Source: an uncultured bacterium (GTDB lineage: Bacteria > Zixibacteria > MSB-5A5 > UBA10806). Taken from it: a stretch of 64,000 bases of DNA. Both the position numbers and the translations under genes were made by a program. The DNA is taken from assembly GCA_965541585.1 (NCBI GenBank), contig CBEUCH010000008.1:64001-128000 (forward strand), in the 5' to 3' direction. The notes beneath the pieces are model-generated. The model was given only the letters and a program-made list of their open reading frames with translations. It was not told where the DNA came from and did no database searches. Position 1 is the stretch's first letter, and each line of letters opens with the position of its first letter. Of the stretch, positions 16,302 through 32,013 are shown in pieces.

Positions 16302-16330
16302 TTGACACCTGCACGAATGTTCAGTATTTT
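16302..16330 (+). promoter_or_regulatory. Sigma70 promoter with a LexA-type box TGCAC-GAAT-GTTCA (16310-16323) in the spacer
   Basis: TTGACA-N17-TATTTT preceded by A-tracts. The box differs from the 9163-9176 palindrome at one arm position. Confidence 0.65.
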
Positions 16331-16438
16331 GGGGCCGGAAAGAAAGTAGAGGGAGGCTGGAACAACGCAGGCGATGGTTAACCTGTTATCATGTAACGTA
16401 TTATGATTATCGAGAATCTCAATATGAAGGGAGGCAAT

Positions 16439-16633
16439 ATGACCAGGAAAATGGAATACGACCTTTTCGCCGCACAAAAGCGATGCAATTGCGGCGGGGG
16501 TCTGATTTACGACGGACAGCTGATGGTCTGTGTCGGCTGCTACGATATTTTCTGCCCGAGCTGTTTTAACAGGGCCGTAACCGAGGGCGGATGTTTCGCC
16601 TGCGCGCTTTGCGGCTGGAGCGCATGCATATAG
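16439..16633 (+). CDS. Small Cys-rich putative zinc-finger protein
   Basis: AAGGGAGG SD before ATG 16439; CxC, CxxC, CxxC and CxxCxxC motifs in 64 aa; ends 6 nt before the helicase start. Confidence 0.7.
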   Translation: MTRKMEYDLFAAQKRCNCGGGLIYDGQLMVCVGCYDIFCPSCFNRAVTEGGCFACALCGWSACI

Positions 16634-16639
16634 GCAATT

Positions 16640-19183
16640 ATGAAGATCGAAAGGCTCCAGCGGTTCGGAATCCCGGAGCAGGTTATAAAACGGTGGTCTG
16701 CAGACGGCATACGATTCCTGCTGCCATTGCAGGCGGAATCGGTTAATCGCTATGCTCTTCTTGACGGCGAAAGCCTGATAATCAGCGGGCCGGGAACATC
16801 CGGTAAGACATTTTGCGGGGAGATGGCCACGCTGCACCAGGCGGCATCGAGAAAGAAAGCTATATTTCTAGTGCCGTTGAAGGCCATCGCGGAGGAAAAA
16901 TACCGGCTGTTTACGAAAAGATATTCGCCGCTGGGGCTTAAGATAAGGCTGGCCACAAGAGACCATGCGGAATACGGTCACGAAATCTCCAGGGCCGATT
17001 ATGATATCCTGATAACCATCTATGAGAAACTCAATTCATTGACTGCTACAGACGTCTCGATTATCAAAAACACCGGCTGTTTTATTCTCGATGAGTTTCA
17101 GCTGATATCCGATCCCGGCAGAGGGCCGGAGATCGAGATCGTGATTGCCAAGATAAGAGCTTTCAATCCCGACGCCCAGCTTGTCATACTGATGGGCGGA
17201 GGGTCGTCGCCTGAGAATATCTCCCGTTGGCTGGGATTGCCGGCGCTGGAAGAAACACGCCGTCCGGTGGATCTTCGGCTGGGAGTTTTACACAGAGGCA
17301 CCTTTCATTTTCGCGGTTTTAACGATCTGACCGAGGGCGATGAGCGCTGGCTGGAGGAGAGGCAGATCGATTACGACGGTCCCCTCGATGACCAGGGTGC
17401 GGCGGCCATCGAGATTCTCGCCGGGCGAGAAGAGCAGATAATCATTTTCACATCGACAAGGAAGAAGGCGACCGGGTTGGCATCGTATCTTGCCGAACGG
17501 TTGGATCTTCCGGCAGCCCGGGAATCCTTAAAGGGGATATCGGAACTGGCGCCATCCGTGCAGAATGAGCGTCTGGCGGAATGCCTGCGGAACGGTGTTG
17601 CGTTTCATCATGCCGAACTCAATAGCGAGCAAAGGCAGTTGGTCGAGGACGGGTTTCGCCGGGGGGAGATCAGGATTCTGTCGTCGACAACAACATTGGC
17701 CTCGGGCGTGAATCTTCCGGCAAAAAATGTGTTTGTAGAGACCATGAAATACGACGGTATCCGATCATCGAACTGCAGGGAAGCGCTGGTTCCGATTTCG
17801 GGAGTCGATTTTCAGCAGGCGGCGGGGCGCGCCGGACGGTTGGGAGTGGGGGATAAGTTCGGCCGGGCGGTGATGATTGCGGCTACTCCATATGAACATG
17901 AAGTTCTCTGGAATCAATATGTCTATGCCCAAAATGAGGATACGAAGTCCGGCCTGGCGAGAAGGCAGATGCCCGATCTGGCAATGCGCCTTATAGCCTC
18001 CGGTATAGCCTTTTCCTCAGATGAGGTAGTCTGCTCCATGGGAAATCTATTCGGGGTCTTCTGTTTGAACGAGAATAGCGGCATCTCAAATTCTGTGGGA
18101 TCCGCGATGGCTTATCTCGAAAAAGGGGGGCTTATTCAATTCGAGAAGGCGGGCAGTATCGTGCCAACCTCGCTGGGAATCATCGCTTGCTCGACAGGAT
18201 TCTCAGTGGGATCGATTATCAGGATCAATGAGACGCTCGATAGATGTATAATAAAAGAACCGTTAGAGTGGCTCTATTTCGCTTTCGGCCTGAGCGAATG
18301 GTCGAAGACAGGTGGATTTTATAATCCGAGAGGCGCATCAGATACTGTTTTGCTTCATCAGATCGATGAGTTAACCGAGGAGTTGTCTGTTCGGTCAGAG
18401 TATATTGCATCGCAGGTGAAATCTTATAAAGAGCGGTCGGTTGTGCGATCGTTATCATCGTTTCTGTTCGCGCTGGAGTGGGTCGCCGGCAGGCCGACTC
18501 GTGAAATGGAGATCGCCTTTAACAAGGGCAGCGGAGGACTCAAACGCGACGCACGGACATTATCCTGGATTCTGACAGCAATCGAAAAGGTCATTCGCAG
18601 TGAGGAATCGGCGTCCGAATCATATAATATGGTCGCCGGTGAACTGAATCAACTTGCTGCCAGAATGAGACATGGTGTCATCGCAGCGATGTTGCCTCTG
18701 GCGAGGATTCTCGATATCGACAGAGAATTTGTTCAGCGGCTTTATAACATGGGGATCAGGTCGGTGGATGATTTTCACGATATCGATTATTCGGTTCTAA
18801 AGGAGATGTTACCGCTAACCGTTGTTGAGAAAATCCAGAATCGTCTCAAGAACTATAATCAGCGAATATCATCGCCGGATAAGCTGACTCCCTCTCAGAA
18901 AAGGAGTGAAGTTTTATTCACCGGCAAAAACAGAAAGCTCTTGAGGGAAATAAATATCTGCGGCAAATCAATATTCTTACAGGCGAAATTATATTCTTAT
19001 ATGCAAAAACTCTGGTGGGGGAATCTGTCGGAAAATCCCTGGATACACAAAGAGAGCCTCGAACCGGGGATCAACCAGGCGAAATATGTAAGCAAGCTTA
19101 GAAGAATATTGAAAGAAAGCGGTATAAAGATAGAGATAGTTTCCAACGGCCGCGGATATTATCGCTTGGTTCTACATAGCTGA
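16640..19183 (+). CDS. Ski2/Hel308-like SF2 helicase with C-terminal OmpR-like winged-helix domain
   Basis: GPGTSGKT, VPLKAIAEEK, TIYEK, DEFQ, RPVDL, GVAFHHA, TTTLASGVNLPA, QAAGRAGR; C-terminal YVSKLRRIL...IVSNGRGYYRL. Confidence 0.85.
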   Translation: MKIERLQRFGIPEQVIKRWSADGIRFLLPLQAESVNRYALLDGESLIISGPGTSGKTFCGEMATLHQAASRKKAIFLVPLKAIAEEKYRLFTKRYSPLGLKIRLATRDHAEYGHEISRADYDILITIYEKLNSLTATDVSIIKNTGCFILDEFQLISDPGRGPEIEIVIAKIRAFNPDAQLVILMGGGSSPENISRWLGLPALEETRRPVDLRLGVLHRGTFHFRGFNDLTEGDERWLEERQIDYDGPLDDQGAAAIEILAGREEQIIIFTSTRKKATGLASYLAERLDLPAARESLKGISELAPSVQNERLAECLRNGVAFHHAELNSEQRQLVEDGFRRGEIRILSSTTTLASGVNLPAKNVFVETMKYDGIRSSNCREALVPISGVDFQQAAGRAGRLGVGDKFGRAVMIAATPYEHEVLWNQYVYAQNEDTKSGLARRQMPDLAMRLIASGIAFSSDEVVCSMGNLFGVFCLNENSGISNSVGSAMAYLEKGGLIQFEKAGSIVPTSLGIIACSTGFSVGSIIRINETLDRCIIKEPLEWLYFAFGLSEWSKTGGFYNPRGASDTVLLHQIDELTEELSVRSEYIASQVKSYKERSVVRSLSSFLFALEWVAGRPTREMEIAFNKGSGGLKRDARTLSWILTAIEKVIRSEESASESYNMVAGELNQLAARMRHGVIAAMLPLARILDIDREFVQRLYNMGIRSVDDFHDIDYSVLKEMLPLTVVEKIQNRLKNYNQRISSPDKLTPSQKRSEVLFTGKNRKLLREINICGKSIFLQAKLYSYMQKLWWGNLSENPWIHKESLEPGINQAKYVSKLRRILKESGIKIEIVSNGRGYYRLVLHS

Positions 19184-19290
19184 GTCTATAGTCCCATTGC
19201 AATTCGCCGGTTTCCATGTCGGGAGCACAGATTTTCTATCCTTCAGGATGGAAGCTGCAGCGATATCCTGAGTGTATAACCTGTCCAACC

Positions 19291-19304
19291 TGCATTTGTT
19301 TTGC
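19291..19304 (+). promoter_or_regulatory. Conserved upstream motif TGCATTTGTTTTGC (copy 1, portal operon)
   Basis: 13/14 identical to 22938-22951; both copies are followed by CCAAT and ATAATTGAAA. Confidence 0.5.
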
Positions 19305-19362
19305 TAAAGTCTTTTCCAATGGATAATTGAAATCAGCGAAAGCACCGCGCAAAGGAGCTCCG

Positions 19363-20649
19363 ATGTTCGGATTGCCGTTTCTAAAAAAAAGGGAAAATAG
19401 AAAGAAAAGCCCTCGCGCCGACCTGGCCCAGCGAGCGAAGATCATCAAGCCTCGCCGTCCCCGGCATAAGGCGGGAGCATCATTGAAGGATGACTATGCC
19501 CGGATCAGCTTCCCGGCCGATTACGGCTATTATGAGAGAATCACACTGTATCGATTCCTGCGGGAGCAGATTCCGGTGGTCAATGGCGCCATTTGGATCT
19601 GGGTACGCCTCTGCTCCAGCCCCATGGAATTTCACCCGTCCGCCAGCGACCGGGAGGCGGATATTACAAGACTGAATTCGGCCGTAGATGATCTCAACCT
19701 GCGCCTGGCGCCGAATCCCTATTATAAATCGGGCGGGCTGGAACGGCTCTCCGATCTTTTCTTCAGTTCATTATTTGTCGATGGGGCCTTTGCAGGCAAT
19801 ATCGAGGTCGGCAGCGACGGCCGGCTGATCGGCTTTTTGCCGGTCGACGTGCGAAAATTGACGTTCGAATACGACGATGGCTGGAAGATTTATCATGAAT
19901 CAGATGAGGGCAAGAGGCTCTTGGATCCGGCCAACTTCATCTATATACCGCTGGACGATGACTCCATCGATCCGCGCGGAAAAAGCATCCTCCAGTCCAT
20001 AGGCTTCGTCAGCCGTCTGGAACAGAAGCTTCTGGATGATATGCAGAAATCACAGGAGAAGGCGGGATATAACAGGCTTCACGTCCTGATCAACAAACCG
20101 GAACGCCGGATGGGCGAATCGGAGAACGATTTTCACGATCGCGCCAACAGCTATTTCGATGATACGGTTGGCCTTTTCTCCGGCATAAAGCCCTCGGATT
20201 CGGTAGTGACCTGGGATGATATCGAAATCAAGACTGTGGCGCCGTCTGGAGGGGCAACAGCGGCAACCCACTCGTGGTACCTGGCGCACCGGGCCGTTGT
20301 GGAGGATGTTTGCGCCGGCGTTCATCTCGATCCCTTTATGTTGGGATATTCATACGGCAGCACCAGGAGCTGGGCGCAATTCAAATTCGAACTGGTTTTA
20401 AGGCAGGTGATTTCCGTCCAGAAGCTGGCGGTTCGATTCTTCGAGTGGCTCGTTAATACGCATCTCACCCTGTCAGGAGTAAACCTGAAAGCCTCCGTCA
20501 ATTTCAATAACGACAGGATAGACGGCGCTCTCGAGAGATACCAATCGGAACATGAGGAGGCTCGCCGCGTGCTGGAATTATACGAGGCCGGATTGTTTTC
20601 CAAGGAGGAGGCCCGCTCCCGCGTTTTCCGAATCGAGGGGGATAATTGA
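19363..20649 (+). CDS. Phage portal-like protein
   Basis: Size and position next to the terminase; portal-like segments (IPVVNGAI, LPVDVRKL, DPRGKSILQS, VCAGVHLDPFMLG); AAGGAG SD before ATG 19363. Confidence 0.75.
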   Translation: MFGLPFLKKRENRKKSPRADLAQRAKIIKPRRPRHKAGASLKDDYARISFPADYGYYERITLYRFLREQIPVVNGAIWIWVRLCSSPMEFHPSASDREADITRLNSAVDDLNLRLAPNPYYKSGGLERLSDLFFSSLFVDGAFAGNIEVGSDGRLIGFLPVDVRKLTFEYDDGWKIYHESDEGKRLLDPANFIYIPLDDDSIDPRGKSILQSIGFVSRLEQKLLDDMQKSQEKAGYNRLHVLINKPERRMGESENDFHDRANSYFDDTVGLFSGIKPSDSVVTWDDIEIKTVAPSGGATAATHSWYLAHRAVVEDVCAGVHLDPFMLGYSYGSTRSWAQFKFELVLRQVISVQKLAVRFFEWLVNTHLTLSGVNLKASVNFNNDRIDGALERYQSEHEEARRVLELYEAGLFSKEEARSRVFRIEGDN

Positions 20650-20650
20650 T

Positions 20651-21136
20651 ATGGCCGGTGCCGACTGCACAATCTGCGAATCGCCGTTGCGAACAGAGAT
20701 CGAGAGCAAAGATACCGCCTGGAAGGCCGACAGGACCATTCAGTGGGCAAGAAAGCATGGCGTGCGAATAAGCAGGTTTTCACTGGCCAGGCATCGCACT
20801 AACCATTTAAATTCGACGAGAATTAGCGCAAAGAAAAAACCTCCGGATAAAATCGTCGAACCTCAGGCCAAAACGAAGCAAATAAAAAGTGATGCCTCCA
20901 TTAGCCCGAATCCCGTATCGGATCTGGAATTTCTCAATGCGGTACGCGACAGGGTTTATGAAAAATTAAAAGAAGGCGAATTCGACCTGAAGATCGAATC
21001 GGCGTTCAAGGCTATCGAGATTAAGAATAAGATATCCGACGAGTCTCAAAACGAAAAACTTCTATTAGAAATTCTGGCGGAGATCCGGACCGAGGAACTC
21101 GGCCGCCTCAAGCAGAGCCGGAGAGCTGCAATCTGA
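20651..21136 (+). CDS. Putative terminase small subunit (CxxC-HTH-HxxxH protein)
   Basis: CTICESP...ISRFSLARHRTNH zinc/HTH N-terminus and helical C-terminus, directly upstream of TerL. Confidence 0.55.
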   Translation: MAGADCTICESPLRTEIESKDTAWKADRTIQWARKHGVRISRFSLARHRTNHLNSTRISAKKKPPDKIVEPQAKTKQIKSDASISPNPVSDLEFLNAVRDRVYEKLKEGEFDLKIESAFKAIEIKNKISDESQNEKLLLEILAEIRTEELGRLKQSRRAAI

Positions 21137-21197: not shown

Positions 21198-22538
21198 ATG
21201 GTAAAAAGAGATCCGCTCGAATCCGGGCGAAGCTGGCGAAAAGCGGTAACGGACCCGGTCTATTTTGCCCGCGCTTTTCTGGATTTGAATCCTCATCCGG
21301 GACAGGCCAGGTGGCTTGAGAATTCGACGGGCTCGGAAAACGCGCTGGTAACGGGCAACCGCTGGGGTAAATCGCAAATACAGGCCGTTAAGCTTTTGCA
21401 TCGTGCCGTCTTTCAAATCAGGCCGATCGATCGCGATATCGACCGTTACTACCGTTGCGCTAACGTCTCCATCACCCAGGATCAGGCAAGCATAGTCTTT
21501 GCGAAGATGCTGGATCTGATAAACAGATCCGAGCCGCTGACTGCTCTTGTGAAAAATATCAGGCAGACTCCTTTCCCTCACATAGTCTTCAAAAACGGCT
21601 CGGAGATCTGGGCACGATCGACGCAGAACAGGGGGGAGTATATCCTGGGGCATGATTTCGACTATATCAATTTCGACGAAGCGGCCTATGAGCCGTTCGG
21701 GGATTGGGTAGTGGACGGCGTGATCAAGCTACGGTTGGCCGACAGGGATGGGACATTAGATCTTTCCTCGACGCCAAACGGTTTGAACTGGTTTTACAAG
21801 CGATGTGAACTCATCAAAAAGCAAATGCGCGGATTTGTGATGCGCGGCTCGACATTTGAAAATCCTCACCTGGCGAAGAATTATCTGGAGGATCTAAAAC
21901 GAGGTTTAACCGAGTCGAGGGTAGCACAGCATCTTCATGGCCGTTTCACCTCGTTCGAGGGGCGCCTTTTCCCGGACGATGTTATCAATCGCTGTTTAAT
22001 ATGCGATGCTCCCTCGTTGCGGGCGCCGAATCCGAAAGGTTTCTATATCCATGGATGGGATCTGGCCCGCAAGGTGACGTACACAGTGGGCATAACAATC
22101 GACGCCGGCTCACGTCCATTCAGGGTGATCGAAATAGCGCGGATGCAGAGGAAATGGCCGGTAACGATTAGTTCTATTAAGGAAAGGCATCGGAAATATG
22201 GCGGCGTAACGATTATCGATTCCACCGGTCTCGGGGATGTCGTCCTGGCGGAGTTGAACGATATCGGTGCGGTCGGCTTCAATTTCGGCGGCGGAAATCG
22301 TGATTTACTGCTGGCCAATCTCGAGCGGGCCATTTACGCCGGAGATGTCGTCTGGCCCCATATCGACCTGCCGGATGACGGAGGCTCGACCTGGAGTCTG
22401 ACAGATGAAATCAGAGCTATGGATAAATTATATAAGAACGTCGGTGATGGCGTTTGCGCGCTCGCGCTGGCGTTGTGGCAGGTCAGAGAACGTTCGGCCG
22501 AATCCCCGTTTTTGAAATCATCGGTTGGCAGGTTTTGA
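21198..22538 (+). CDS. Terminase large subunit
   Basis: Walker A TGNRWGKS, Walker B YINFDEAA, coupling motif SSTPNG, RNase H-like nuclease acidic motifs GWD, IIDSTG, GDGVCALALA. Confidence 0.92.
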   Translation: MVKRDPLESGRSWRKAVTDPVYFARAFLDLNPHPGQARWLENSTGSENALVTGNRWGKSQIQAVKLLHRAVFQIRPIDRDIDRYYRCANVSITQDQASIVFAKMLDLINRSEPLTALVKNIRQTPFPHIVFKNGSEIWARSTQNRGEYILGHDFDYINFDEAAYEPFGDWVVDGVIKLRLADRDGTLDLSSTPNGLNWFYKRCELIKKQMRGFVMRGSTFENPHLAKNYLEDLKRGLTESRVAQHLHGRFTSFEGRLFPDDVINRCLICDAPSLRAPNPKGFYIHGWDLARKVTYTVGITIDAGSRPFRVIEIARMQRKWPVTISSIKERHRKYGGVTIIDSTGLGDVVLAELNDIGAVGFNFGGGNRDLLLANLERAIYAGDVVWPHIDLPDDGGSTWSLTDEIRAMDKLYKNVGDGVCALALALWQVRERSAESPFLKSSVGRF

Positions 22539-24101: not shown

Positions 24102-24134
24102 TTGCAGGAAATCCAGCATCTGCGAGGAGGAACG

Positions 24135-24434: not shown

Positions 24435-24857
24435 ATGAGTGTAAGAGAACAAAACTTGCAGACCGTTGGCTTTATGACGGCCACGTTCAAAATCCATCAG
24501 ACCGCCAGCGAGGATGATTTAAAAGACGCGGATATCGGCAAGGCGGTCGCCATGACGGGCAATTACGAGGTCGGTCCTGGTTCCGATGGCGATGTGTTGA
24601 TCGGTAAACTGATACATCTATCGTTGACCGATGCAGACGTCGGGAAGAGGGTGGCTACCGTCCAGATCGGCGGAATCTGCACGCTGGCCGCGGCCGCCAC
24701 GGTGCCGTCCGTAGGAGATCGTGTAGTGGTTGACGGTAGCGGCGCAGTGAGACAGGCCCCGGCGCTGGCAACCGATGACCCGGCCGGGGGGAACGTGGCG
24801 CGCGGAACTGTCATCGATGTCAACGGCACCTCGGAAGTAACATTAATTCTTGGATAA
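24435..24857 (+). CDS. Capsid decoration/cement-like protein
   Basis: Gly/Ala/Val-rich beta protein (GKAV, VATVQIGG, VGDRVVVDGSG) immediately before the capsid gene; AAGGAG SD. Confidence 0.65.
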   Translation: MSVREQNLQTVGFMTATFKIHQTASEDDLKDADIGKAVAMTGNYEVGPGSDGDVLIGKLIHLSLTDADVGKRVATVQIGGICTLAAAATVPSVGDRVVVDGSGAVRQAPALATDDPAGGNVARGTVIDVNGTSEVTLILG

Positions 24858-24876
24858 GAATCAACAGGGAGAAAAG

Positions 24877-25986
24877 ATGGAAATAGAAAAATTGATGTCA
24901 TCAGATCTCGAAAGCTCGCTTGTGGATGCGATCGAGAACGAGAAGGGCTCGACCGGATCAGTCGATTTCGCAAAGGCCCGGAAGATAGACGTTGACCGCG
25001 ATACATATCTCGAAGCGCAGGCCAAGGGAATGTCTCTAACCGAACTGCTGGAGCAGACGGAATACGATCCGAGTCCCTCCGGTTCATTACTGGATGCTTT
25101 CGAGAGACAACTGGCGTTGAAGGGAATTCGTACTGGGGGCAAAAGTCCGGTAACGGTTGAGATGTTCTATCGAGGCGCACCGGCCCTTATGCCGGAATTC
25201 ATGCAGAGGGAGATCCTGCGGGGGATGAATATGCGTCCCGAACTGGCGAAACTGCTGGCCTCCAGCTCCGGCGTATCCACGTCACGCTACTCACCCATAA
25301 ATATTGACCACTCCGCCACCGATCCCGAAATGTCGCTACGGCCGGTAGGCGAGGGCGCCGTGATACCATCCGTCAATGTCACCGAGCAAAACAACACCAT
25401 AACGATTCCGGATTATGGTCTGACCCTGAAGGTAACCTACAAAGCTCTACGACACCGGAGTATGGCGCAGTTTAAAGTGTTGCTATGGTATATAGGATAT
25501 CGTCTGCAATCGGATAAAGTCGCTCTGGTCGTGGATACAATCATCAACGGCGATGGCAATTCTAATCCGGCGACGGTAATAAACACCGATATTACCAGCA
25601 CTCTCGATTACGACGATCTCATTAAATTCTGGAACGAATTCTATCCTTACCAGCCGAACGTTCTGATCTGCCATAAAGATAAAGTCAGATCGATACTGAC
25701 CCTGGCGGAATTCAAAGATCCCCTGGTCGGCTTCAGTTTCCAGACCAATGGGGAAATTACATCGCCCCTGGGCGCAACGTTGATACGCTGTGATGAAGTC
25801 CCCGCCGATTACGTCATCGGCCTCGATAACCGTTTTGCAATTGAAGAGGTGATCGGCCAGCCCCTGATGGTGGAATACGATAAAATCATCGAGCAGAAGA
25901 TCGAGGAGGCTGTGATATCCGAATCGGTGGCGTACGCAAAAGTCGTGAAGGAATCATCGCTGATACTCGATTCCGAGTGGACTTAA
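24877..25986 (+). CDS. Major capsid protein (HK97-fold)
   Basis: ~369 aa; VGEGAVIP, YGLTLKVTYKAL, IINGDGN segments typical of HK97-like capsids; follows protease and decoration genes. Confidence 0.82.
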   Translation: MEIEKLMSSDLESSLVDAIENEKGSTGSVDFAKARKIDVDRDTYLEAQAKGMSLTELLEQTEYDPSPSGSLLDAFERQLALKGIRTGGKSPVTVEMFYRGAPALMPEFMQREILRGMNMRPELAKLLASSSGVSTSRYSPINIDHSATDPEMSLRPVGEGAVIPSVNVTEQNNTITIPDYGLTLKVTYKALRHRSMAQFKVLLWYIGYRLQSDKVALVVDTIINGDGNSNPATVINTDITSTLDYDDLIKFWNEFYPYQPNVLICHKDKVRSILTLAEFKDPLVGFSFQTNGEITSPLGATLIRCDEVPADYVIGLDNRFAIEEVIGQPLMVEYDKIIEQKIEEAVISESVAYAKVVKESSLILDSEWT

Positions 25987-26008: not shown

Positions 26009-27454
26009 ATGCACAAACTGATAGCCACATCGGCGGCGAACCGGCCCACCGGGTCGCCGCCCCAGAGAAAACTGTTTCGGGTGCCGTCCGGGATATTCAA
26101 GAGAAGGCTGGCGGCTCTATACATGGACTCTGCGGCCGGTATATCGCTTTCGTACTCGGATCACCCGCATCAATCCTGGTCGTCGCCACAGCAGATAATA
26201 ACCGATTCGCTTGACTCACCTTTCAGCGTCAGCATGGATGGATCAGGTAACATATATATAGTCTATAGCGATAGTTCGAAGGATATTAAATTCGTCAAGC
26301 TGACGTTTGCCGCAGGCGCCTGGTCGGCCGGGTCCGCTGTTACGGTCCTGGATGTGGATGATAATTACAATCCCTTTATTCTAAAAGACGGCGACGGCAA
26401 GCTCTGGTGCTTCATTGTAAACCATCGAACTTCGGTCGACTCGAAATACTACGTGCGCTCGAAATTTTCAGACGATGACGGCCAGACATGGGGAACGGGT
26501 GGCAGCGATCTCGGGACGCAGCTTTCGTCGGGATCGGACGATATCTGTTACGTATCGGCCTGCCAGATATCATCGCGGCTTTACACCGTTTATGCCGACG
26601 AGCGATCGAATCTCAAATACCGCGTCTATGACCTGAAACTGGAGTCCTGGGAAAGCGAAAATGCAATCCATACGGGAGATTATATAGATGACGATTTCGA
26701 TATCGCCGTGAGTCCCGATAAGAAACTTGGCGTTGCCTTTTCAATCAGTTCCGATAGCAGGATCTATTTCAAAGAGTTCGATGGTAATTCCTGGAGCGGT
26801 TTACAGGAGGTCGAAGATGTACAGTCAAGATCCCCCCAAATCTCCTATTTGAATGAAATTCCGCATATATTCTATGCTGGATTCCTGGGCAGCAATTACT
26901 ACAGGCTTCGCCATGCGCTAAAATCCGGGGATTCATTCCTCCCTGCCGACTATGCTCCCTCCATAGGAACATTCGATAAAGTTTTGGTTTACGATGATTC
27001 GGCGAGCACTAAATTCGAGGATAAGACAACTGCCGCAGCAGATTCCTCGTCCGGCGATGTGTATCATTCTGAATCATCGGCCTTGTTGAATGGTATAGGC
27101 GATTGCCTCTATGTCGGGAATAAAGACAAGTTCTACTGCGCTACTATTATACTCTCTGTCGCAGGTGCCGGAGGCCAGGTGGTCTGGGAGTATTTCAACG
27201 GAGCTCAATGGATCGCCTTCACTCCGGACAGCGGTGCTTATCATTTCGATTCGGCTGACAAGCTGGTTTATCTGTGGGCCGACGGCGAGTCATTGCCATC
27301 GGACTGGCAAATCGGGGCGATCAACAACTACAACGCATACTGGGTAAGAGCCCGCGTTTCAGTCGGTTTCTCGTCGAACCCGGTCGGCACACAGATCATG
27401 GCAGCGCCCGCGTGCGACGATCTGGCGCTGGTTCGTAACGGCCTCGGGGGATAG
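26009..27454 (+). CDS. Beta-rich (propeller/BNR-like) putative virion-associated protein
   Basis: Asp-box FSDDDGQTW, repeated DxxGxxxI(V/Y) blades, C-terminal WEYFNG..W...YWVR module; no signal peptide. Confidence 0.55.
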   Translation: MHKLIATSAANRPTGSPPQRKLFRVPSGIFKRRLAALYMDSAAGISLSYSDHPHQSWSSPQQIITDSLDSPFSVSMDGSGNIYIVYSDSSKDIKFVKLTFAAGAWSAGSAVTVLDVDDNYNPFILKDGDGKLWCFIVNHRTSVDSKYYVRSKFSDDDGQTWGTGGSDLGTQLSSGSDDICYVSACQISSRLYTVYADERSNLKYRVYDLKLESWESENAIHTGDYIDDDFDIAVSPDKKLGVAFSISSDSRIYFKEFDGNSWSGLQEVEDVQSRSPQISYLNEIPHIFYAGFLGSNYYRLRHALKSGDSFLPADYAPSIGTFDKVLVYDDSASTKFEDKTTAAADSSSGDVYHSESSALLNGIGDCLYVGNKDKFYCATIILSVAGAGGQVVWEYFNGAQWIAFTPDSGAYHFDSADKLVYLWADGESLPSDWQIGAINNYNAYWVRARVSVGFSSNPVGTQIMAAPACDDLALVRNGLGG

Positions 27455-27464: not shown

Positions 27465-27836
27465 ATGAACGTTACTCTGGACTACCTGAAATCTAACCGT
27501 AAATGGTTTATCCGCGATTATCGTGTCTGGGGCGATGACGGCGCCCTCGAAGCCGATATGCTGATGACGGAAACAACGCCCTCAACGTCGAGAATAGTCT
27601 TCCTGCATCAGTTCTCCGGTGGCAACGGACAGGTTGTGGATTTTGCGGATCTTCTGGATCATCGCGGCAATAAACTGCCGCTGACCATAAACAATGCAGA
27701 AGTTATTATCATCCCGAAGAATGCGGTCGCCGCCTTCGTTCCTGGCACGGTCGGCCCGACATCTTTTCGAATTGCCAAATCTAATCGGCAACTTGCGGAT
27801 GCAGTCGTCGACCTTTTGATAATGGAGATGAGCTGA
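27465..27836 (+). CDS. Hypothetical protein of the capsid cluster
   Basis: GGGGAG SD; TGATG coupling to the next gene. Confidence 0.7.
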   Translation: MNVTLDYLKSNRKWFIRDYRVWGDDGALEADMLMTETTPSTSRIVFLHQFSGGNGQVVDFADLLDHRGNKLPLTINNAEVIIIPKNAVAAFVPGTVGPTSFRIAKSNRQLADAVVDLLIMEMS

Positions 27837-28660
27837 TGTCATTTACGACGAAAGATCTCGTTAAAAAACATATCCTGGATCACCATCTCGGCTCGACCCT
27901 CATGGAAAATGAACCGCTCCAGTTAACCGGTAATGATGCCGTGTCCCTGCAGAGGAGAATGATCCTGAAAGGCTCGGAAAAGGTAAAGGGAAAAGAGCAA
28001 CTGGAGCCGGTTCAGGAAACTGTGAGCTTCGCAGGCTCCGATACATTCAGCCTGTCACATTCGGAACTGATTCCCGATACCGTGGTTGTCGCAGGGGATA
28101 GCTCTTTGGGAACCATTTATCTGGAAAATGTTGATTACCATATAGACTACGACAACGGAGAAATCAGAAGAATCAGCTCCGGATCTCTTGCCGCCGGCGC
28201 CAGCGTGGTGATCTGGTATCTCCACTTTAGAATCTATCAGCGGGGAGTGGATTACGATATCGATTACCAGAAGGGCACTATACGAAGGCGCTCATCAGGG
28301 GACGTTGAGTCCGGGCAGCGGGTCCTGGTGGACTATACGGCGGAGTACGGAGGTCTTGACGATGAGGCCATTGATAATGCTATCACGGAGGCCCATGAGC
28401 AGGTGCTGTCGTATATCGATGAGACCTACCGCGATTCCGCCGACCGTTCGCTGGTTTCCGCGGAGACCTATCTCACGGTTTCTATTATATGCCGTATCCG
28501 GGCCATGGAGGCCGTATCTCCATCGAGGGGCAGCGCCAACAACGCCACCGAGGCTAAATCCTGGTCCGCATTGTCTGACACATACAAGAAGGAGGCATAT
28601 ATTATCCTCTCGAGATTCACCGGTATCGTTGGTTCATTCAAGTCGCCATCGAAAGCTTAA
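27836..28660 (+). CDS. Head-completion/connector-like protein with two N-terminal beta repeats
   Basis: Repeats YLENVDYHIDYDNGEIRR and YQRGVDYDIDYQKGTIRR; helical C-terminus (AIDNAITEA...I...YKKEA..IL) resembling gp6/gp15/Mu gp36 adaptors. Confidence 0.5.
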   Translation: MSFTTKDLVKKHILDHHLGSTLMENEPLQLTGNDAVSLQRRMILKGSEKVKGKEQLEPVQETVSFAGSDTFSLSHSELIPDTVVVAGDSSLGTIYLENVDYHIDYDNGEIRRISSGSLAAGASVVIWYLHFRIYQRGVDYDIDYQKGTIRRRSSGDVESGQRVLVDYTAEYGGLDDEAIDNAITEAHEQVLSYIDETYRDSADRSLVSAETYLTVSIICRIRAMEAVSPSRGSANNATEAKSWSALSDTYKKEAYIILSRFTGIVGSFKSPSKA

Positions 28661-28701: not shown

Positions 28702-29799
28702 ATGGGCAGAATCATTTTAGCCACGCTGAAAGCGTGGCTTATAGTCCCGCTTATAGCGGGACTGGCCTCGTCTGCGTGGGGGGATACATTTGGCTTTTCG
28801 ACCCAGGGTGCTGCCAGTATCGGCGTAAATCAAACGTGGTGTTACAGTAACAGATACCCACCGGATGTTTACGGTGTTTCGGGCGGCGAGATATTAACCG
28901 AGTTGTGGGTGTTTATAGATCCGCCAGCTGCCAACTACACCAGTAAAATGGGCGTATATAAGTGGTCGGCATCCGATTCATGTGTTACCGACAGTATAGT
29001 GACATCCGGCAGCGTCAGCAATCCGTCGGCGGGTGCCGGTTGGATGCGGTATGATATTGCAGATAAGGTATTGACGGCTAACGATACCATATCGATAGTG
29101 GTCGGAAATTTCCAGACGGGAACGTGGTATATATACGAAACGGCTACTACCGATGCCGCAGAAGAGCATACGGCCGGCGATCTGCCGGCTTCGCTGAGCT
29201 GCGACAGCCGGGACGATTGGCGACTCTCCATGTTCGGGTGCATTAACCAGGAAGGTGGGGGTGGTGCTCTGGGGCATAGTCCTGACACATTCAGCCTCGG
29301 CACCAATTGGACTAATCCTGACAACGGCAGGATAGATGATAATTCCTGTGCCACATATAATAATACCGGGCAGGATTATGTCTGTTACCACGATTTCGAT
29401 TTTTCCATTCCATCAGGCGTAACTATTGACAGCTTTGATGTAACCGTGCAAGTTCGTGGCTCTGCCCTGCCTGCGGCAAAACGGGAATATCGTATCGGCT
29501 TGACAAAAGATTCGACAAATGTATATGGAACCGCCAGGCTGGACACTGCCAACAATGCGGGAGCCTGTAGTGACGCAAGCAACCAGACGAATAGTGGCGA
29601 TCTGTTCGGCGGTGCGTCATGGTCGGGATCAGATATAAACGGTCGGGGATTCGGGGTTATCCTCTATGACGATGATGAACAATCAGACGCATTGGATTTT
29701 GATGCCGTCTGGGTGACGGTTTATTTTACGCCCGCAGCGGTAGGGGGGGTGACTCCATCTCCAAGACGAAAAATGATCTCTAAGGTATTCGGGGGATAA
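28702..29799 (+). CDS. Secreted beta-rich protein of unknown function
   Basis: Signal peptide ending SAWG; two beta-sandwich-like halves separated by GGGG; basic C-terminal tail. Confidence 0.7.
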   Translation: MGRIILATLKAWLIVPLIAGLASSAWGDTFGFSTQGAASIGVNQTWCYSNRYPPDVYGVSGGEILTELWVFIDPPAANYTSKMGVYKWSASDSCVTDSIVTSGSVSNPSAGAGWMRYDIADKVLTANDTISIVVGNFQTGTWYIYETATTDAAEEHTAGDLPASLSCDSRDDWRLSMFGCINQEGGGGALGHSPDTFSLGTNWTNPDNGRIDDNSCATYNNTGQDYVCYHDFDFSIPSGVTIDSFDVTVQVRGSALPAAKREYRIGLTKDSTNVYGTARLDTANNAGACSDASNQTNSGDLFGGASWSGSDINGRGFGVILYDDDEQSDALDFDAVWVTVYFTPAAVGGVTPSPRRKMISKVFGG

Positions 29800-29803
29800 T
29801 AAA

Positions 29804-31540
29804 ATGAAAAAGGTATTTACAATACTATATGTTCTCATCCTTGCCGCCGGGGTTATGGCAATATCGGTAAGGCCAACCGATCAGGTTACAGTAGCTTCCC
29901 GGACGATTTACAATGATGGCAATCTTGCACAGCCCGATTCGGTCAGGATACAGGTATTTCGCAATGGCACGGAGCTTTCTGACGCATGGTATAATACGGG
30001 CGATGCAGAGTGCTCCGCTATTGATAGTTGGTTGATATTCACCGATCAGTTGCAGGATATAGATGGTGCAGGGGGACAGGGACACTATATCATAATGGGT
30101 CGGGCATACGATGAGGATTCAACTCTCTATACGCCCTGGGTATATAATTTCGATGTCGGTATGTGGACAGCCGTTGATCTTATAGAAGATACCCTGCAAT
30201 CACAGGATGGGTGGGTAGCCAGAGAAGCTACGGTTCAGATCATTAATGACAGTTTGGATAGTCAGGATGGATGGGTTGCCCGGAATCAATATGTGGACAC
30301 CGAGGTGCAGGAGATCTTGGACACGCTGAAGACATATGACGACGCCGGTCGCTTTCAGACAGATGCGCAGGAAATCCTCGATACTTTACAGAGCCAGGAT
30401 ACCTGGGTGGCGAAGGAGGCGACCGTAAACGGCCTGAACGACTTTGATCCCCTGTCGGATTCCGTGATGGTCGATATGTCTGTTCTCGATTCGAGCCTGA
30501 TGGGCAGCACTGCCGGGCGGGCATTGCTGTCATTAGCGCCCCATTTCGGGTGGGTGTCTTCTCAGATCAGCACCGGTCAATTCAAAATCGGCGGGCCGAT
30601 GACCGCATACAGCGATGATTTTTTCAATGATCTTCAATTGATTTTCATTGACGGGAATCTGCCCGGCAGGGCATCGAAAGTGACTGATTGGAGCGGTTCG
30701 GATTCGACCATAACGGTCAACCCGTTCTCATCACAGCCCGCCGTATATGACACGTTTGTAGTCGCTCCCAATCTGGATATCTCGGCTTCGGCAGATCTCC
30801 CCGATTCCGTTTCGGCAAGAATAGACTCGATTTTTGCCTCCGTTGGGACATTTTCGGATACCTCGATTACCGCTAAACTGGGGAGTTACTCCGGTGCCGC
30901 CGGGGATAATAACAATGTCAAGGACGACATAGCCGCAATATCCACACAGGGGGGAGGTACGGAAGCTGAAACGCTACTCGTTTTCGATAGTGATTCGACG
31001 GCCATCGAGGGCGTATCCGTCACGGTTCGCAACCTCGACCAGACATCCACAAAAGTGCCCGGTCACCGCACCGACTCCTCCGGCAAACTATACCTCGAGC
31101 TCGATCCCGACAGTTTCGTGGTGGCGCTTTATGCAAACAACTATATCCAGCCGGACCTCGATACAATCGTGGTGTCGACCGGCGGGGGCACAGATACGCT
31201 CTGGATGAACCTGTTCGATCCCGGCAATCCACCATCGCCTGATCTCTGCAGGGTTTATGGCTGGGTATACGATATCACCGGCGATTCGCTCGAAGGCGTG
31301 ACGATAACTTCAGAGATTCCACCGGATTTCCATCCCGTCAAGTACTCGAATGTCATAATTACGCCCTTTAAGAAGACCACGAAGACAGATTCCACCGGCT
31401 ATTGGCAAATCGATCTATTCCCAAATTCGGTCCTGTCCGATGAGGATTCCAGGTACGCCTTTATAATCGAATATCCATCCGGTGTAGTTTTCAAAGCCCG
31501 GGTCGAGGTACCGGATTCGACCAGTTGGCAATTGAAATAA
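29804..31540 (+). CDS. Secreted fibre-like protein with internal repeats and C-terminal prealbumin-like beta domains
   Basis: Signal peptide MKKVFTILYVLILAAGVMA; three D(T/S)LxSQDxWVA repeats; TDSSG and TDSTGYWQI domains. Confidence 0.7.
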   Translation: MKKVFTILYVLILAAGVMAISVRPTDQVTVASRTIYNDGNLAQPDSVRIQVFRNGTELSDAWYNTGDAECSAIDSWLIFTDQLQDIDGAGGQGHYIIMGRAYDEDSTLYTPWVYNFDVGMWTAVDLIEDTLQSQDGWVAREATVQIINDSLDSQDGWVARNQYVDTEVQEILDTLKTYDDAGRFQTDAQEILDTLQSQDTWVAKEATVNGLNDFDPLSDSVMVDMSVLDSSLMGSTAGRALLSLAPHFGWVSSQISTGQFKIGGPMTAYSDDFFNDLQLIFIDGNLPGRASKVTDWSGSDSTITVNPFSSQPAVYDTFVVAPNLDISASADLPDSVSARIDSIFASVGTFSDTSITAKLGSYSGAAGDNNNVKDDIAAISTQGGGTEAETLLVFDSDSTAIEGVSVTVRNLDQTSTKVPGHRTDSSGKLYLELDPDSFVVALYANNYIQPDLDTIVVSTGGGTDTLWMNLFDPGNPPSPDLCRVYGWVYDITGDSLEGVTITSEIPPDFHPVKYSNVIITPFKKTTKTDSTGYWQIDLFPNSVLSDEDSRYAFIIEYPSGVVFKARVEVPDSTSWQLK

Positions 31541-31568
31541 ATACAATAAATCTGTGGAGGAAATTAAG

Positions 31569-31955
31569 ATGTTTATCGAACCTGTCTCAATTCATCACGT
31601 CTCGGCCGGCCTGTTTTCATGGGTAGGGGACATCCTGAGCGAAAGATCGCTGGCGGCGGTCGGTACGATTCTGATGATTTACCTGGGATATCTGATAAAA
31701 AAAGAAATAGTCCCGTTATTGAAAGTCAAACGCAATAAAGAGATTGCGGGCTACATACTTGTGATTGCCGACGATGTTACCGATTATTTCCGGCTGAAGT
31801 TTCCGTCGGCGCACTGGTCGGTATGGCTTGACCGGGCGGTTGACAAAATTATCGATGTTACCGGCGTCGGGAAAAATGCGGCAGAACGTGCCGCCAGAGC
31901 AGCGGTAGCAAGGAAAAAAGAAATAAAGGATCAGAATGAAGAAGGTCGAAGCTGA
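31569..31955 (+). CDS. Holin-like small membrane protein
   Basis: One TM helix (LAAVGTILMIYLGYLI), charged helical C-terminus, last gene of the cluster; GGAGG SD. Confidence 0.5.
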   Translation: MFIEPVSIHHVSAGLFSWVGDILSERSLAAVGTILMIYLGYLIKKEIVPLLKVKRNKEIAGYILVIADDVTDYFRLKFPSAHWSVWLDRAVDKIIDVTGVGKNAAERAARAAVARKKEIKDQNEEGRS

Positions 31956-31985
31956 CTATTAGCATCCGGTAAAATTGCCGTCAAG

Positions 31986-32013
31986 GGGAGCTCATATTCA
32001 GGCTCCCTTTTTT
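31986..32013 (+). terminator. Intrinsic terminator closing the capsid cluster
   Basis: GGGAGC...GCTCCC stem followed by TTTTTT. Confidence 0.8.

What the first reader, a model, noticed from the sequence alone, without database searches (positions are those of the whole stretch)
16302..32013. Tail-less, integrase-less capsid/packaging cluster: candidate new gene-transfer-agent-like system
Seen: 15 co-oriented ORFs without obvious disruption, from a promoter (16302) to a terminator (31986). They encode portal, TerS, TerL with ATPase and nuclease motifs, protease with His/Ser, decoration, HK97-like capsid and connector-like proteins. Not seen: integrase, CI/Cro, primase/replication initiator, tail tube/sheath, tape measure, baseplate, endolysin, flanking tRNA or a convincing att. 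The neighbours are ordinary host genes. Known: GTAs (RcGTA, VSH-1, BaGTA) are ~15-kb domesticated phage clusters but keep tails, and capsid-forming PICIs lack tails but keep integrase and primase. This cluster fits neither. Inference: a host-owned, head-only particle that packages host DNA, either delivered without a tail or borrowing tails in trans.
Basis: partly seen in the sequence, partly recalled or inferred. Interest (0 to 1): 0.92.

Follow-up and report, generated by a model that had tools for sequence, protein, structure and literature searches.

The report
Zixibacteria's inherited tail-less phage capsid system
This is a virus-derived set of capsid and DNA-packaging genes that almost all members of the uncultured phylum Zixibacteria have inherited from their ancestors and kept intact, most likely to make DNA-filled particles without a normal phage tail.

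Summary
Window 16.3-32.0 kb carries one co-oriented block: Hel308-like helicase, portal, TerS-like protein, TerL (ATPase and nuclease residues intact), prohead protease (His/Ser), decoration protein, HK97-type capsid, a lectin-like beta-propeller, a 123-aa protein, a head-tail adaptor, two secreted proteins and a membrane protein. Host genes flank it. I found no integrase, tRNA, att-like repeat, tail tube, sheath or tape measure.

It is not a prophage remnant. The capsid gene is single-copy in 255 of 285 Zixibacteria genomes searched (189 of 198 high-quality ones). Its identity falls with host kinship as slowly as the RpoB core does. dN/dS is 0.04-0.30 for all 11 cluster genes compared, and 0.18 for the helicase. 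The portal-TerL half lies 20-100 kb from the capsid half in some genomes. The nearest free viruses are at most 37% identical in the capsid protein, and the long contigs checked are long-tailed.

"Head-only" needs correcting: there is a neck adaptor and a probable glycan-binding appendage. Host ownership is strongly supported. Packaging and transfer of host DNA (GTA-like) is inferred, not shown.

My literature searches found no description. Four earlier notes of this scan reached the same reading on other Zixibacteria genomes.

The parts
16302..16330 (+). sigma-70-like promoter candidate upstream of the block
   Evidence: TTGACA-17-TATTTT, 10 of 12. A consensus match only.
16403..16633 (+). 76-aa Cys-rich small ORF (zinc-ribbon-like by eye), function unknown
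   Evidence: ORF list. No Pfam or PHROG hit. No homologue seen in 12 related loci.
16640..19183 (+). Hel308-like superfamily-2 DNA helicase, 847 aa, linked to the packaging module
   Evidence: DEAD, Helicase_C and Helicase_dom4_arc domains. Full-length match to NCBIfam PRK02362, E 2e-109, below its cut-off. phrog_6819. Present in 57 of 61 relatives and missing from family f6, as are MCP and TerL. Within 25 kb of TerL in 20 of the 22 genomes where both share a contig (my reading). dN/dS 0.18.
19327..20649 (+). portal protein
   Evidence: phrog_3753, E 1e-25. Conserved next to TerL in relatives. dN/dS 0.085.
20552..21136 (+). small-terminase-like protein. The true start is probably the internal Met near 20651.
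   Evidence: Sits between portal and TerL. Has an HTH-like N-terminus and a coiled-coil C-terminus by eye. Only unnamed PHROGs hit. Conserved in this slot in L013, L018, L023, L109-L111. The TerS role is inferred.
21198..22538 (+). large terminase (ATPase plus nuclease)
   Evidence: phrog_2, E 2e-26; PF03237. Catalytic residues invariant. 57 of 61 relatives have a match; the full-length ones read as intact open frames, a few are cut by contig ends. dN/dS 0.09.
22983..23789 (+). prohead (capsid maturation) protease-like protein with a Cys3His cluster
   Evidence: phrog_16951, which occupies the protease slot in related phages. H83, S137, C147, C150, C157 and H159 invariant in 14 sequences.
23790..24101 (+). 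103-aa protein with an N-terminal membrane helix and a coiled coil
   Evidence: Conserved in 9 of 12 loci. The hydrophobic N-terminus is conserved. Role unknown; scaffold-like or lysis-related is a guess.
24102..24380 (+). 92-aa helical ORF in the scaffold slot, poorly conserved
   Evidence: Homologues seen only in close relatives. dN/dS 0.30.
24435..24857 (+). head decoration-like virion protein
   Evidence: phrog_4588, E 3e-9; phrog_122. 53-82% identical across 11 loci. dN/dS 0.041.
24850..25986 (+). HK97-fold major capsid protein
   Evidence: phrog_3922, E 1e-64; PF25209. Found in 255 of 285 phylum genomes. dN/dS 0.053.
26009..27454 (+). lectin/glycosidase-like beta-propeller with a C-terminal beta-sandwich; probable glycan-binding appendage
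   Evidence: Model pLDDT 94.8. Z 26-27 to PLL/PHL lectins, PL25 ulvan lyase and glycoside hydrolases. Sialidases and a chain of the phage LME-1 portal-tail complex by Foldseek. Large phage proteins in BFVD. Found in 72 of 80 loci directly after MCP. dN/dS 0.089.
27465..27836 (+). 123-aa conserved protein always next to the adaptor; neck or stopper role guessed
   Evidence: 12 of 12 loci, though its order relative to the adaptor swaps. No PDB, Pfam, PHROG or Atlas match.
27836..28660 (+). head-to-tail adaptor (gp6/gp15/gp4-type helical core) with two inserted beta-sandwich domains
   Evidence: Model pLDDT 87.4. All 10 top VIA-wide rows are phage neck or portal-tail entries: Mu 5ydn Z 9.5, HK97 gp6 3jvo Z 8.6. 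RcGTA 6tba_2A scores Z 7.5. dN/dS 0.088.
28702..29799 (+). variable-slot protein with an N-terminal signal peptide
   Evidence: Only partial similarity even within the genus. The slot holds unrelated secreted proteins in other genomes, with Disaggr_repeat in L015 and L017.
29804..31540 (+). secreted protein with a variable N-half, short repeats, and a conserved C-terminal part that includes a CarboxypepD_reg beta-sandwich
   Evidence: PF13620. C-terminal ~200-280 aa conserved in 11 of 12 loci. Signal-peptide-like N-termini in most homologues. Nearest Atlas clusters are viral, score 0.91; a lead only.
31554..31955 (+). 133-aa membrane protein closing the block (holin-like by architecture only)
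   Evidence: Conserved in 8 of 12 loci after the previous gene. Membrane helix seen. No family hit.
31983..32018 (+). intrinsic-terminator-like hairpin plus T-run
   Evidence: 10-pair stem with 5 GC pairs, followed by TTTTATT.

Best explanation
The block is this genome's copy of a phage-derived capsid and DNA-packaging system. An ancestor of Zixibacteria domesticated it, and the phylum has inherited it vertically under purifying selection.

Shown here:
- It encodes a complete head-building and DNA-packaging set: portal, TerS-like protein, catalytically intact TerL, protease, decoration protein and HK97 capsid.
- It encodes a neck adaptor.
- A conserved lectin-like propeller follows the capsid gene directly.
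- It has no integration, lysogeny or replication-initiation genes and no tail tube, sheath or tape measure.
- It is not mobile.

Inferred: in a subpopulation the cell assembles proheads. The terminase fills them with DNA through the portal, probably host DNA by a headful mechanism. The adaptor, perhaps with the 123-aa protein, closes the neck. The propeller protein provides binding to cell-surface glycans. The particles leave by lysis and carry DNA to kin, as a gene transfer agent does, but without a conventional tail. The linked Hel308-like helicase may process DNA for packaging. The secreted and membrane proteins at the 3' end may serve release, or docking on the recipient side.
For: Distribution:
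- MCP in 56 of 61 relatives and 255 of 285 phylum genomes; 189 of 198 high-quality genomes; 118 of 130 genera.
- TerL in 57 of 61 relatives.
- One copy per genome in nearly all cases.

Vertical descent:
- MCP identity to the window is 92-93% within the genus, 78-86% within the family, 64-71% within the order and 56-67% within the class.
- TerL: 88-89, 71-78, 54-58 and 41-53%.
- RpoB core: 90-91, 77-80, 69-74 and 63-69%.
- Spearman correlation with RpoB is 0.85 for MCP and 0.87 for TerL, n = 50.

Selection: dN/dS is 0.04-0.30 for all 11 cluster genes compared with a congener, and 0.18 for the helicase, with dS 0.36-1.13.

Not a mobile unit:
- MCP and TerL lie 19-100 kb apart or on different contigs in G009, G013, G048 and G047.
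- Flanking genes differ between genomes, and host genes sit inside the cluster.
- No integrase on the contig, no tRNA, no att-like repeat.
- GC content matches the flanks.

Function kept:
- TerL catalytic residues are invariant.
- Protease His/Ser are invariant.
- Adaptor fold and lectin-like propeller.

No close free virus:
- Only 5 GenBank phage records match, at about 32%.
- In IMG/VR, one Zixibacteria-type fragment at 57%; everything else at or below 37%.
- The three long viral contigs checked with this head module carry long-tail genes (sheath, tape measure or major tail protein) that the cluster lacks.

A DNA role is also suggested by relatives. In one genome the protease is fused to an intact LigD-like ligase/phosphoesterase. 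In 11 others it carries a homologous C-terminal extension; in the 11 long homologues aligned, the site of the catalytic Lys holds another residue.
Against: - No particle, packaged DNA or transfer has been observed.
- No nozzle, tube, needle or ejection protein was recognised, so DNA delivery has no identified device.
- No endolysin is in the cluster.
- The two proteins after the adaptor carry signal peptides. That is odd for parts of a particle assembled in the cytoplasm.
- The adaptor match is moderate (Z 8.3-9.5). The tool warns that helical folds reach such values easily.
- Losses occur. Family f6 has no MCP, TerL or helicase (0 of 2 each). One complete genome (G049) and G055 have MCP but no TerL, even with a profile search.
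- Identities to a single reference among kin are not independent data points.
Confidence: 0.6

Rival explanations
1. Anti-phage or interference function. The domesticated capsid and terminase are kept to hijack or abort infections, for example by packaging or cutting invader DNA or by misdirecting phage assembly as PICIs do, rather than to transfer host genes.
For: The linked helicase matches Hachiman HamB models over its helicase core, E 2e-37. A second defence-like helicase (BrxHI/DECH type) lies 5 kb upstream. Long-term retention implies a benefit to the host, and defence is a common one.
Against: None of the 15 non-helicase cluster proteins scanned hits PADLOC. The helicase matches Hel308 full-length, which is a better fit than HamB, and no neighbour hits any PADLOC model, HamA included. 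Phylum-wide single-copy vertical inheritance at an RpoB-like rate is unlike defence islands, which are usually patchy (recalled).
Confidence: 0.12
2. Tail-borrowing heads. The cluster makes DNA-filled heads with a free adaptor that become infectious only after joining tails made by co-resident or environmental phages, as capsid-forming PICIs do.
For: The cluster has an adaptor but no tube or sheath. An 8.4-kb IMG/VR contig (L117) has a compact set of MCP, adaptor-like protein, TerL, portal and protease, resembling a satellite.
Against: A host-owned system conserved over a whole phylum would depend on tails of fast-changing phages. The conserved propeller and the variable spike-like slot suggest the particle has its own adsorption parts. 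No integrase, primase or att, which define PICIs.
Confidence: 0.1
3. A cellular role unrelated to transfer between cells, such as a DNA-storage or DNA-export capsule (eDNA for biofilms) or a protein compartment.
For: No delivery device was found. Secreted and membrane proteins are part of the conserved block.
Against: An intact nuclease plus ATPase terminase, a portal and an adaptor are a DNA-packaging and DNA-exit apparatus. A lectin-like appendage implies binding to a target surface.
Confidence: 0.1
4. An ordinary decaying prophage, or a normal prophage whose remainder is hidden by assembly.
For: The genes are phage-derived. Some genomes have lost parts.
Against: The window lies mid-contig between host genes. 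The cluster is conserved in 255 of 285 genomes with dN/dS of 0.3 or less. The full-length matches read as intact frames.
Confidence: 0.02

Closest known systems
RcGTA-type gene transfer agents of Alphaproteobacteria (Rhodobacter capsulatus GTA)
   Same: A roughly 15-kb phage-derived head and packaging cluster resident in the chromosome, with no integrase or replication genes. It is inherited vertically over a large clade under purifying selection, with parts at separate loci in some genomes. It has an HK97-type capsid, portal, TerL, protease and a gp6-like adaptor; the RcGTA adaptor chain 6tba_2A aligns at Z 7.5. Features of RcGTA itself are recalled, plus the abstract of PMC10883770 in the listing.
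   Different: No tail tube, tape measure, distal tail or hub genes. No match to NCBIfam families beyond a sub-threshold HK97 capsid hit, so this is an independent domestication. Extra parts: a lectin-like propeller, an adaptor with Ig-like inserts, a linked Hel308-like helicase, and secreted proteins.
Capsid-forming PICIs (cf-PICIs)
   Same: They encode their own small capsid, portal, terminase, protease and connector but no tail. Released heads need a delivery device from elsewhere (recalled).
   Different: cf-PICIs are mobile islands with an integrase, att sites, primase/replication and regulators, and a patchy distribution (recalled). Here none of these is present, and inheritance is vertical across the phylum.
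Domesticated head-tail virus-derived loci proposed in Thaumarchaeota (Krupovic et al. 2019, PMC6563490; passages read)
   Same: Morphogenesis modules without att sites or replication genes, suggested by the authors to be GTA-like domesticated elements.
   Different: Those are described as head-tail proviruses in a few genomes, mutually divergent and of separate origin. Here there is one orthologous set spanning a bacterial phylum, without a tail module.
Long-tailed phages carrying the phrog_3753/30703 - phrog_16951 - phrog_4588 - phrog_3922 head module (IMG/VR contigs L118, L129, L130; gut phage records)
   Same: Homologous portal, protease-like protein, decoration protein and capsid in the same order.
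   Different: At most 37% capsid identity. They carry Neck1, sheath or major tail, and tape-measure genes. They lack the propeller, the 123-aa protein, the inserted adaptor and the 578-aa protein.

Membership tests
Gene transfer agent / viriform (functional class) | Virus-derived structural gene set resident in the host genome, without its own replication, integration or lysogeny functions | tested here: met
   The only DNA-metabolism gene is a Hel308-like helicase.
Gene transfer agent / viriform (functional class) | Vertical inheritance with the host and purifying selection | tested here: met
Gene transfer agent / viriform (functional class) | Particles package host DNA, in pieces too small to carry the whole encoding gene set | not testable with these tools
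   Needs particle DNA sequencing. No RNA or virome evidence was obtained.
Gene transfer agent / viriform (functional class) | Particles deliver DNA to recipient cells | not testable with these tools
   Needs an experiment.
Gene transfer agent / viriform (functional class) | A tail, as in all characterised GTAs (recalled: RcGTA, BaGTA, VSH-1, Dd1, VTA) | tested here: not met
   No tube, sheath, tape-measure or baseplate family in the window cluster or in 12 related loci. No tape-measure match in the genome. The only sheath and tube genes belong to an eCIS-type cluster on another contig. Several cluster proteins remain without a fold.
RcGTA homologous family | Orthology to RcGTA head-tail cluster genes (NCBIfam/TIGRFAM models) | tested here: not met
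   Among the 15 non-helicase cluster proteins scanned, only a sub-threshold HK97 capsid hit (21 bits against a cut-off of 27.5) and a sub-threshold domain-level hit of the adaptor's Ig insert.
Capsid-forming PICI | Integrase and att sites; mobile island | tested here: not met
   Vertical inheritance.
Capsid-forming PICI | Own capsid, portal, terminase and connector genes but no tail genes | tested here: met
HK97-fold Caudoviricetes head/packaging module | HK97-type MCP, portal, TerL with ATPase and nuclease motifs, prohead protease with His/Ser | tested here: met
gp6/gp15/gp4-type head-to-tail adaptor | Helical-bundle adaptor fold | tested here: met
   The top 10 of 48,161 chains are all phage neck or portal-tail entries, Z 8.3-9.5, 89-109 residues aligned. 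These Z values are moderate for a helical fold. No sequence-profile hit in the PDB.
Sialidase (GH33) enzymes | Six-bladed propeller with a conserved Arg triad and Tyr/Glu nucleophile pair | tested here: inconclusive
   Propeller fold and Asp-box are present. Among 68 homologues only R33 is invariant and R205 nearly so. Lectins and lyases score as well as or better than sialidases.
Hachiman (HamAB) defence system | HamB helicase together with a HamA nuclease | tested here: not met
   The helicase core matches HamB models, but no neighbour matches any PADLOC model. The full-length match is to Hel308.

The most novel reading that the evidence does not exclude
Zixibacteria run a sixth, independently domesticated kind of gene transfer particle that has no tail or injection device. 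It would be a DNA-filled HK97 capsid closed by a decorated adaptor. It would dock on kin through a lectin-like propeller, possibly onto the secreted and membrane proteins encoded at the end of the same block. Its DNA would then enter through the recipient's own uptake machinery. The linked Hel308-like helicase and, ancestrally, a capsid-targeted LigD-like enzyme would serve DNA processing. That would be a new mode of horizontal transfer midway between transduction and transformation, maintained for the whole history of a phylum.
Probability: 0.25. Interest if true: 0.95.

Novelty: new variant of a known kind. Interest (0 to 1): 0.8.

Why it matters
Known gene transfer agents are few, each an independent domestication, and all have tails (recalled). 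A capsid and packaging system kept by about nine in ten genomes of an entire uncultured phylum, with its capsid protein evolving about as slowly as the RNA polymerase core, would be one of the most ancient and best-conserved virus domestications in bacteria. It would also be the first without a recognisable tail. It offers a testable route to gene exchange in sediment bacteria that cannot be cultured. It supplies a compact head-neck set for structural work. It also warns virus-detection pipelines: one Zixibacteria-type fragment sits in IMG/VR as a viral contig (L113).

Tried and rejected
- Complex prediction of adaptor with the 123-aa protein: the queue was full, then the tool was withdrawn. 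Nothing was folded.
- Expression: no RNA holder listed for the stretch.
- Sequence-profile searches of the PDB gave nothing useful for the adaptor, the 123-aa protein or the protease.
- Foldseek on the adaptor model gave only scattered beta-sandwich matches. The adaptor assignment rests on VIA-align.
- Atlas look-up of the 123-aa protein: scores 0.85 or lower, uninformative.
- The 121-aa ORF of L117 is not detectably related to the 123-aa protein (hhalign probability 2%).
- Idea that the propeller is a podovirus nozzle: T7- or P22-type nozzles did not appear among the listed matches. A chain of the LME-1 portal-tail complex did, at Foldseek rank 7. The question is left open.
- Spread outside the phylum: the adaptor family has 142 clusters at E <= 1e-30, including a second length class (277-304 aa). 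One member of that class is named as from a Calditrichota MAG. Two metagenome scans for their context found nothing. A viral scan found only L117 itself. Whether sister phyla have a related system is therefore open.
- PF27730, listed for some adaptor homologues, is not in the local Pfam copy.
- att search: only short repeats that look like chance matches.
- The eCIS cluster on C22 was considered as a possible tail in trans. I set it aside because it has the standard eCIS parts (Pvc16 cap, AAA ATPase, VgrG, PAAR) and no link to the capsid genes. Its distribution in relatives was not tested.

Full report
**What is there.** The window is G000:C8:64001-128000, inside a 162,632-base contig of a 3.52-Mb, 98%-complete genome. 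Between 16.4 and 32.0 kb all sizeable ORFs lie on the + strand.

Family scans and my later analyses name them as follows:

| Coordinates | Product |
|---|---|
| 16403-16633 | 76-aa Cys-rich ORF |
| 16640-19183 | Hel308-like helicase |
| 19327-20649 | portal |
| 20552-21136 | TerS-like protein |
| 21198-22538 | TerL |
| 22983-23789 | prohead-protease-like protein |
| 23790-24101 | small membrane/coiled-coil protein |
| 24102-24380 | small helical protein |
| 24435-24857 | decoration-like protein |
| 24850-25986 | HK97-type capsid protein |
| 26009-27454 | 481-aa BNR/propeller protein |
| 27465-27836 | 123-aa protein |
| 27836-28660 | 274-aa protein (adaptor) |
| 28702-29799 | 365-aa protein |
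| 29804-31540 | 578-aa protein with a CarboxypepD_reg domain |
| 31554-31955 | 133-aa membrane protein |

A promoter-like site at 16302 and a strong terminator-like hairpin at 31983-32010 bracket the block. The flanks are ordinary host genes: T9SS cargo proteins, a DECH-box helicase, FG-GAP/dockerin proteins, and a type IV pilus operon further on. There is no tRNA in the window. None of the genome's six integrase matches is on this contig. No att-like repeat flanks the block. GC content is the same as in the flanks.

**It is a phylum-wide, vertically inherited system.**
- The capsid protein has a match in 56 of 61 related genomes.
- At phylum level it has a match in 255 of 285 genomes: 189 of 198 high-quality ones and 118 of 130 genera. 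Only families f6 (0 of 2) and f19 (0 of 1) have none.
- Record titles identify the phylum as Zixibacteria.
- TerL is found in 57 of 61 relatives. Apart from a few matches cut by contig ends, the frames are intact.

Identity to the window falls with kinship, with no outliers:

| Protein | Genus | Family | Order | Class |
|---|---|---|---|---|
| MCP | 92-93% | 78-86% | 64-71% | 56-67% |
| TerL | 88-89% | 71-78% | 54-58% | 41-53% |
| RpoB core (513 aa) | 90-91% | 77-80% | 69-74% | 63-69% |

So the capsid protein is about as conserved as the RpoB core. Across the 50 genomes that have all three values, Spearman correlation with RpoB is 0.85 for MCP and 0.87 for TerL. Ten genomes were left out because one value was missing, partial or split. 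Kin are not independent, so I treat this as descriptive only.

Against a congener, dN/dS is 0.04-0.30 for all 11 cluster genes compared (portal to adaptor) and 0.18 for the helicase, with dS 0.36-1.13.

**Gene order and context.** In 12 loci from seven families (f1, f2, f3, f9, f10, f15, f16), plus three more of the window's own family, the core order is kept: protease, membrane/coiled-coil protein, decoration protein, MCP, propeller, 123-aa protein and adaptor (these two swap order), a variable ORF, the conserved C-terminus of the 578-aa protein, and the 133-aa protein. In 80 further loci of MCP plus or minus 3 kb, the counts are decoration 76, propeller 72, adaptor 63 and 123-aa protein 56. 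These are limited by contig ends and by the flank length.

The neighbourhood differs between genomes, and host genes are inserted between TerL and the protease. The portal-TerL half lies 19-100 kb from the capsid half in G009, G013 and G048, and on another contig in G047. This is the behaviour of host genes, not of a mobile prophage.

**No close free virus.**
- GenBank phages give 5 records at about 32% capsid identity.
- IMG/VR gives 153 relatives, of which the best 80 were kept. One, at 57%, is a Zixibacteria-type fragment with the same gene order (L113). All the others are at or below 37%.
- Among those 80 contigs, only L113 has the propeller and only L117 has an adaptor of this type.
- The three long viral contigs examined with the same head module carry long-tail genes: Neck1, sheath and tape measure (L129); Neck1 and tape measure (L130); major tail protein (L118).

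The ancestor's head module therefore belongs to long-tailed phages, and the tail module is gone.

**Is it really tail-less?** No tube, sheath, tape-measure or baseplate family appears in the cluster or in the related loci. The genome has no tape-measure match. Its only sheath and tube genes sit in a standard eCIS-type cluster on contig C22, together with a Pvc16 cap, an AAA ATPase, VgrG, PAAR, gp25 and Baseplate_J.

The particle is nevertheless not a bare head.
- **Adaptor.** The 274-aa protein was modelled at pLDDT 87.4. In a search of 48,161 chains, its ten best matches are all phage neck or portal-tail entries: the Mu neck subunit at Z 9.5, T4 gp13/14, HK97 gp6 at Z 8.6, and podovirus adaptors of A4, Pa223, GP4 and SU10. 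RcGTA scores Z 7.5. The helical core is split by two beta-sandwich domains (residues 19-171) that resemble Ig-like domains of phage baseplate and tube proteins. The Z values are moderate. What persuades me is that all ten top matches are phage neck proteins.
- **Propeller.** The 481-aa protein was modelled at pLDDT 94.8. It is a propeller plus a C-terminal beta-sandwich. It matches Photorhabdus lectins, a PL25 ulvan lyase and glycoside hydrolases at Z 26-27. Foldseek finds sialidases and a chain of the LME-1 phage portal-tail complex, and large phage proteins in BFVD. A sialidase-type arginine triad is not conserved among 68 homologues. I read it as a glycan-binding or glycan-cutting appendage.
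- **Variable slot.** After the adaptor, the slot holds unrelated proteins in different genomes. In L015 and L017 these carry a disaggregatase-related repeat.

**Unexpected features.**
1. The variable-slot protein and the 578-aa protein have signal-peptide-like N-termini in most homologues. The 103-aa and 133-aa proteins have membrane helices (read by eye). Secreted proteins are not expected on a particle assembled in the cytoplasm. They may serve lysis or release, exclusion, or recipient-side docking. I cannot tell which.
2. The Hel308-like helicase matches NCBIfam PRK02362 over its full length at E 2e-109. It is present in 57 of 61 relatives and missing from family f6, where MCP and TerL are also missing, and from G055, which also lacks TerL. 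By my reading of the coordinates, it shares a contig with TerL in 22 genomes and lies within 25 kb of it in 20 of them. I take it as probably part of the system. Its PADLOC hits to HamB cover only the helicase core, and no neighbour matches any PADLOC model.
3. In L019 the protease is fused to an ATP-dependent DNA ligase plus a LigD phosphoesterase domain, with an intact KxDG motif. BLAST finds a homologous C-terminal extension in eleven other genomes. In the eleven long homologues aligned, the position of the catalytic Lys holds another residue. The window's family lacks the extension. This points to an ancestral DNA-end enzyme carried on the prohead protease.

**Losses.** Family f6 lacks MCP, TerL and the helicase. 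G049, a one-contig genome rated 99% complete, and G055 have the capsid half but no TerL, even with a profile search. In G049 the propeller gene is split. So the system can be lost or eroded.

**Mechanism.**
- Shown: a complete, catalytically intact head-assembly and DNA-packaging gene set with a neck adaptor and a conserved lectin-like protein. It is host-owned and under selection, and it has no tail module and no mobility genes.
- Inferred: production of DNA-filled, tail-tube-less particles that carry host DNA to kin (GTA-like).
- Unknown: the packaging substrate, how particles are released, and how DNA enters a recipient.

I put the full reading at 0.6. That the system is domesticated and vertically inherited I put at about 0.9. 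The rivals are a defence or interference role (0.12), tail-borrowing heads (0.10), another cellular use of DNA capsules (0.10) and a decaying prophage (0.02).

**Comparison with known systems.** It works most like a GTA and meets the testable criteria: resident, non-replicative, vertically inherited and under selection. It is not homologous to the RcGTA cluster at family level, and it lacks the tail that every characterised GTA has (recalled). It shares the tail-less capsid set of cf-PICIs but has none of their mobility or replication features. Krupovic et al. (PMC6563490; passages read) proposed GTA-like domesticated head-tail loci in a few Thaumarchaeota. Those keep a head-tail module and are of separate origins.

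**Novelty.** Full-text searches returned nothing on such an element. The term pairs were Zixibacteria or Zixiibacteriota with 'gene transfer agent', terminase, capsid and prophage (listings only). Two broader GTA searches also returned nothing relevant. Four earlier notes of this same scan, on other Zixibacteria genomes, reached the same reading. They are unchecked AI notes, not independent evidence, and I re-derived their claims here.
- the adaptor and propeller folds;
- the correction of 'head-only';
- the helicase linkage;
- the secreted 3' proteins;
- the protease-ligase fusions;
- the calibration against RpoB;
- the long-tailed nature of the nearest free viruses.

**Verdict.** A real, phylum-wide domesticated capsid system. 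It is a new variant of the GTA/viriform kind. Interest 0.8.

Noticed in passing
G000 contig C22, about 23-37 kb (locus L107:1014-15338): A complete-looking extracellular contractile injection system cluster on the - strand: sheath, gp19-like tube, Pvc16-type cap, AAA ATPase, VgrG-like spike, PAAR-like DUF4280, gp25 and a Baseplate_J protein. It is unlinked to the capsid cluster.
   Followed up: partly
window 9162-11495 (+): A 777-aa DECH-box helicase with an MrfA Zn-binding domain. It matches TIGR03817 at E 4e-203 (below cut-off) and BrxHI/SngC/DruE-like PADLOC models. It lies 5 kb upstream of the cluster and may be a defence or repair gene.
   Followed up: partly
L019:11608-13941 (-), and long homologues in L022, L055, L057, L072, L080, L081, L092, L093, L095, L096, L097, L098: In other Zixibacteria the prohead-protease-like protein is fused to a LigD-like module (ATP-dependent ligase plus phosphoesterase). 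The KxDG motif is intact only in L019. In the other long homologues aligned, the position of the catalytic Lys holds another residue. The window's family lacks the extension.
   Followed up: partly
L117 (IMG/VR contig of 8420 bases): A compact set of MCP, a 121-aa ORF, an adaptor of the inserted type (33% identical to the window's), TerL, portal and a protease-like protein. It may be a satellite-like or mobile relative of the ancestor. Host unknown.
   Followed up: partly
G049 (locus L015) and G055: The capsid half is present but no TerL was found, even with a profile search. In L015 the propeller gene is split into ORFs of 311 and 187 aa, and only a 65-aa portal fragment matched. This may be erosion of the system in that lineage, or assembly errors.
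   Followed up: partly
L015:5389-5751, L017:5330-5578, L019:5645-6166: In more distant families an ORF similar to the TerS-like protein lies next to the 123-aa gene rather than between portal and TerL.
   Followed up: no
window 32180-33421 (+): A 413-aa lipoprotein-like ORF just after the terminator. It is conserved in the same position in the window's family only (L013, L014, L111), has no family hit, and may or may not belong to the system.
   Followed up: no
Proteins P0236/P0272 and others (277-304 aa): A second length class of adaptor homologues exists outside the Zixibacteria-type set. One is named as from a Calditrichota MAG. Its genomic context could not be fetched.
   Followed up: partly
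window 47727-53115 (+): A type IV pilus assembly operon (GspH-like pilin, PilM, PilN, PilO, an AMIN-domain protein and a PilQ secretin) lies 16 kb downstream. No link to the capsid cluster was tested.
   Followed up: no
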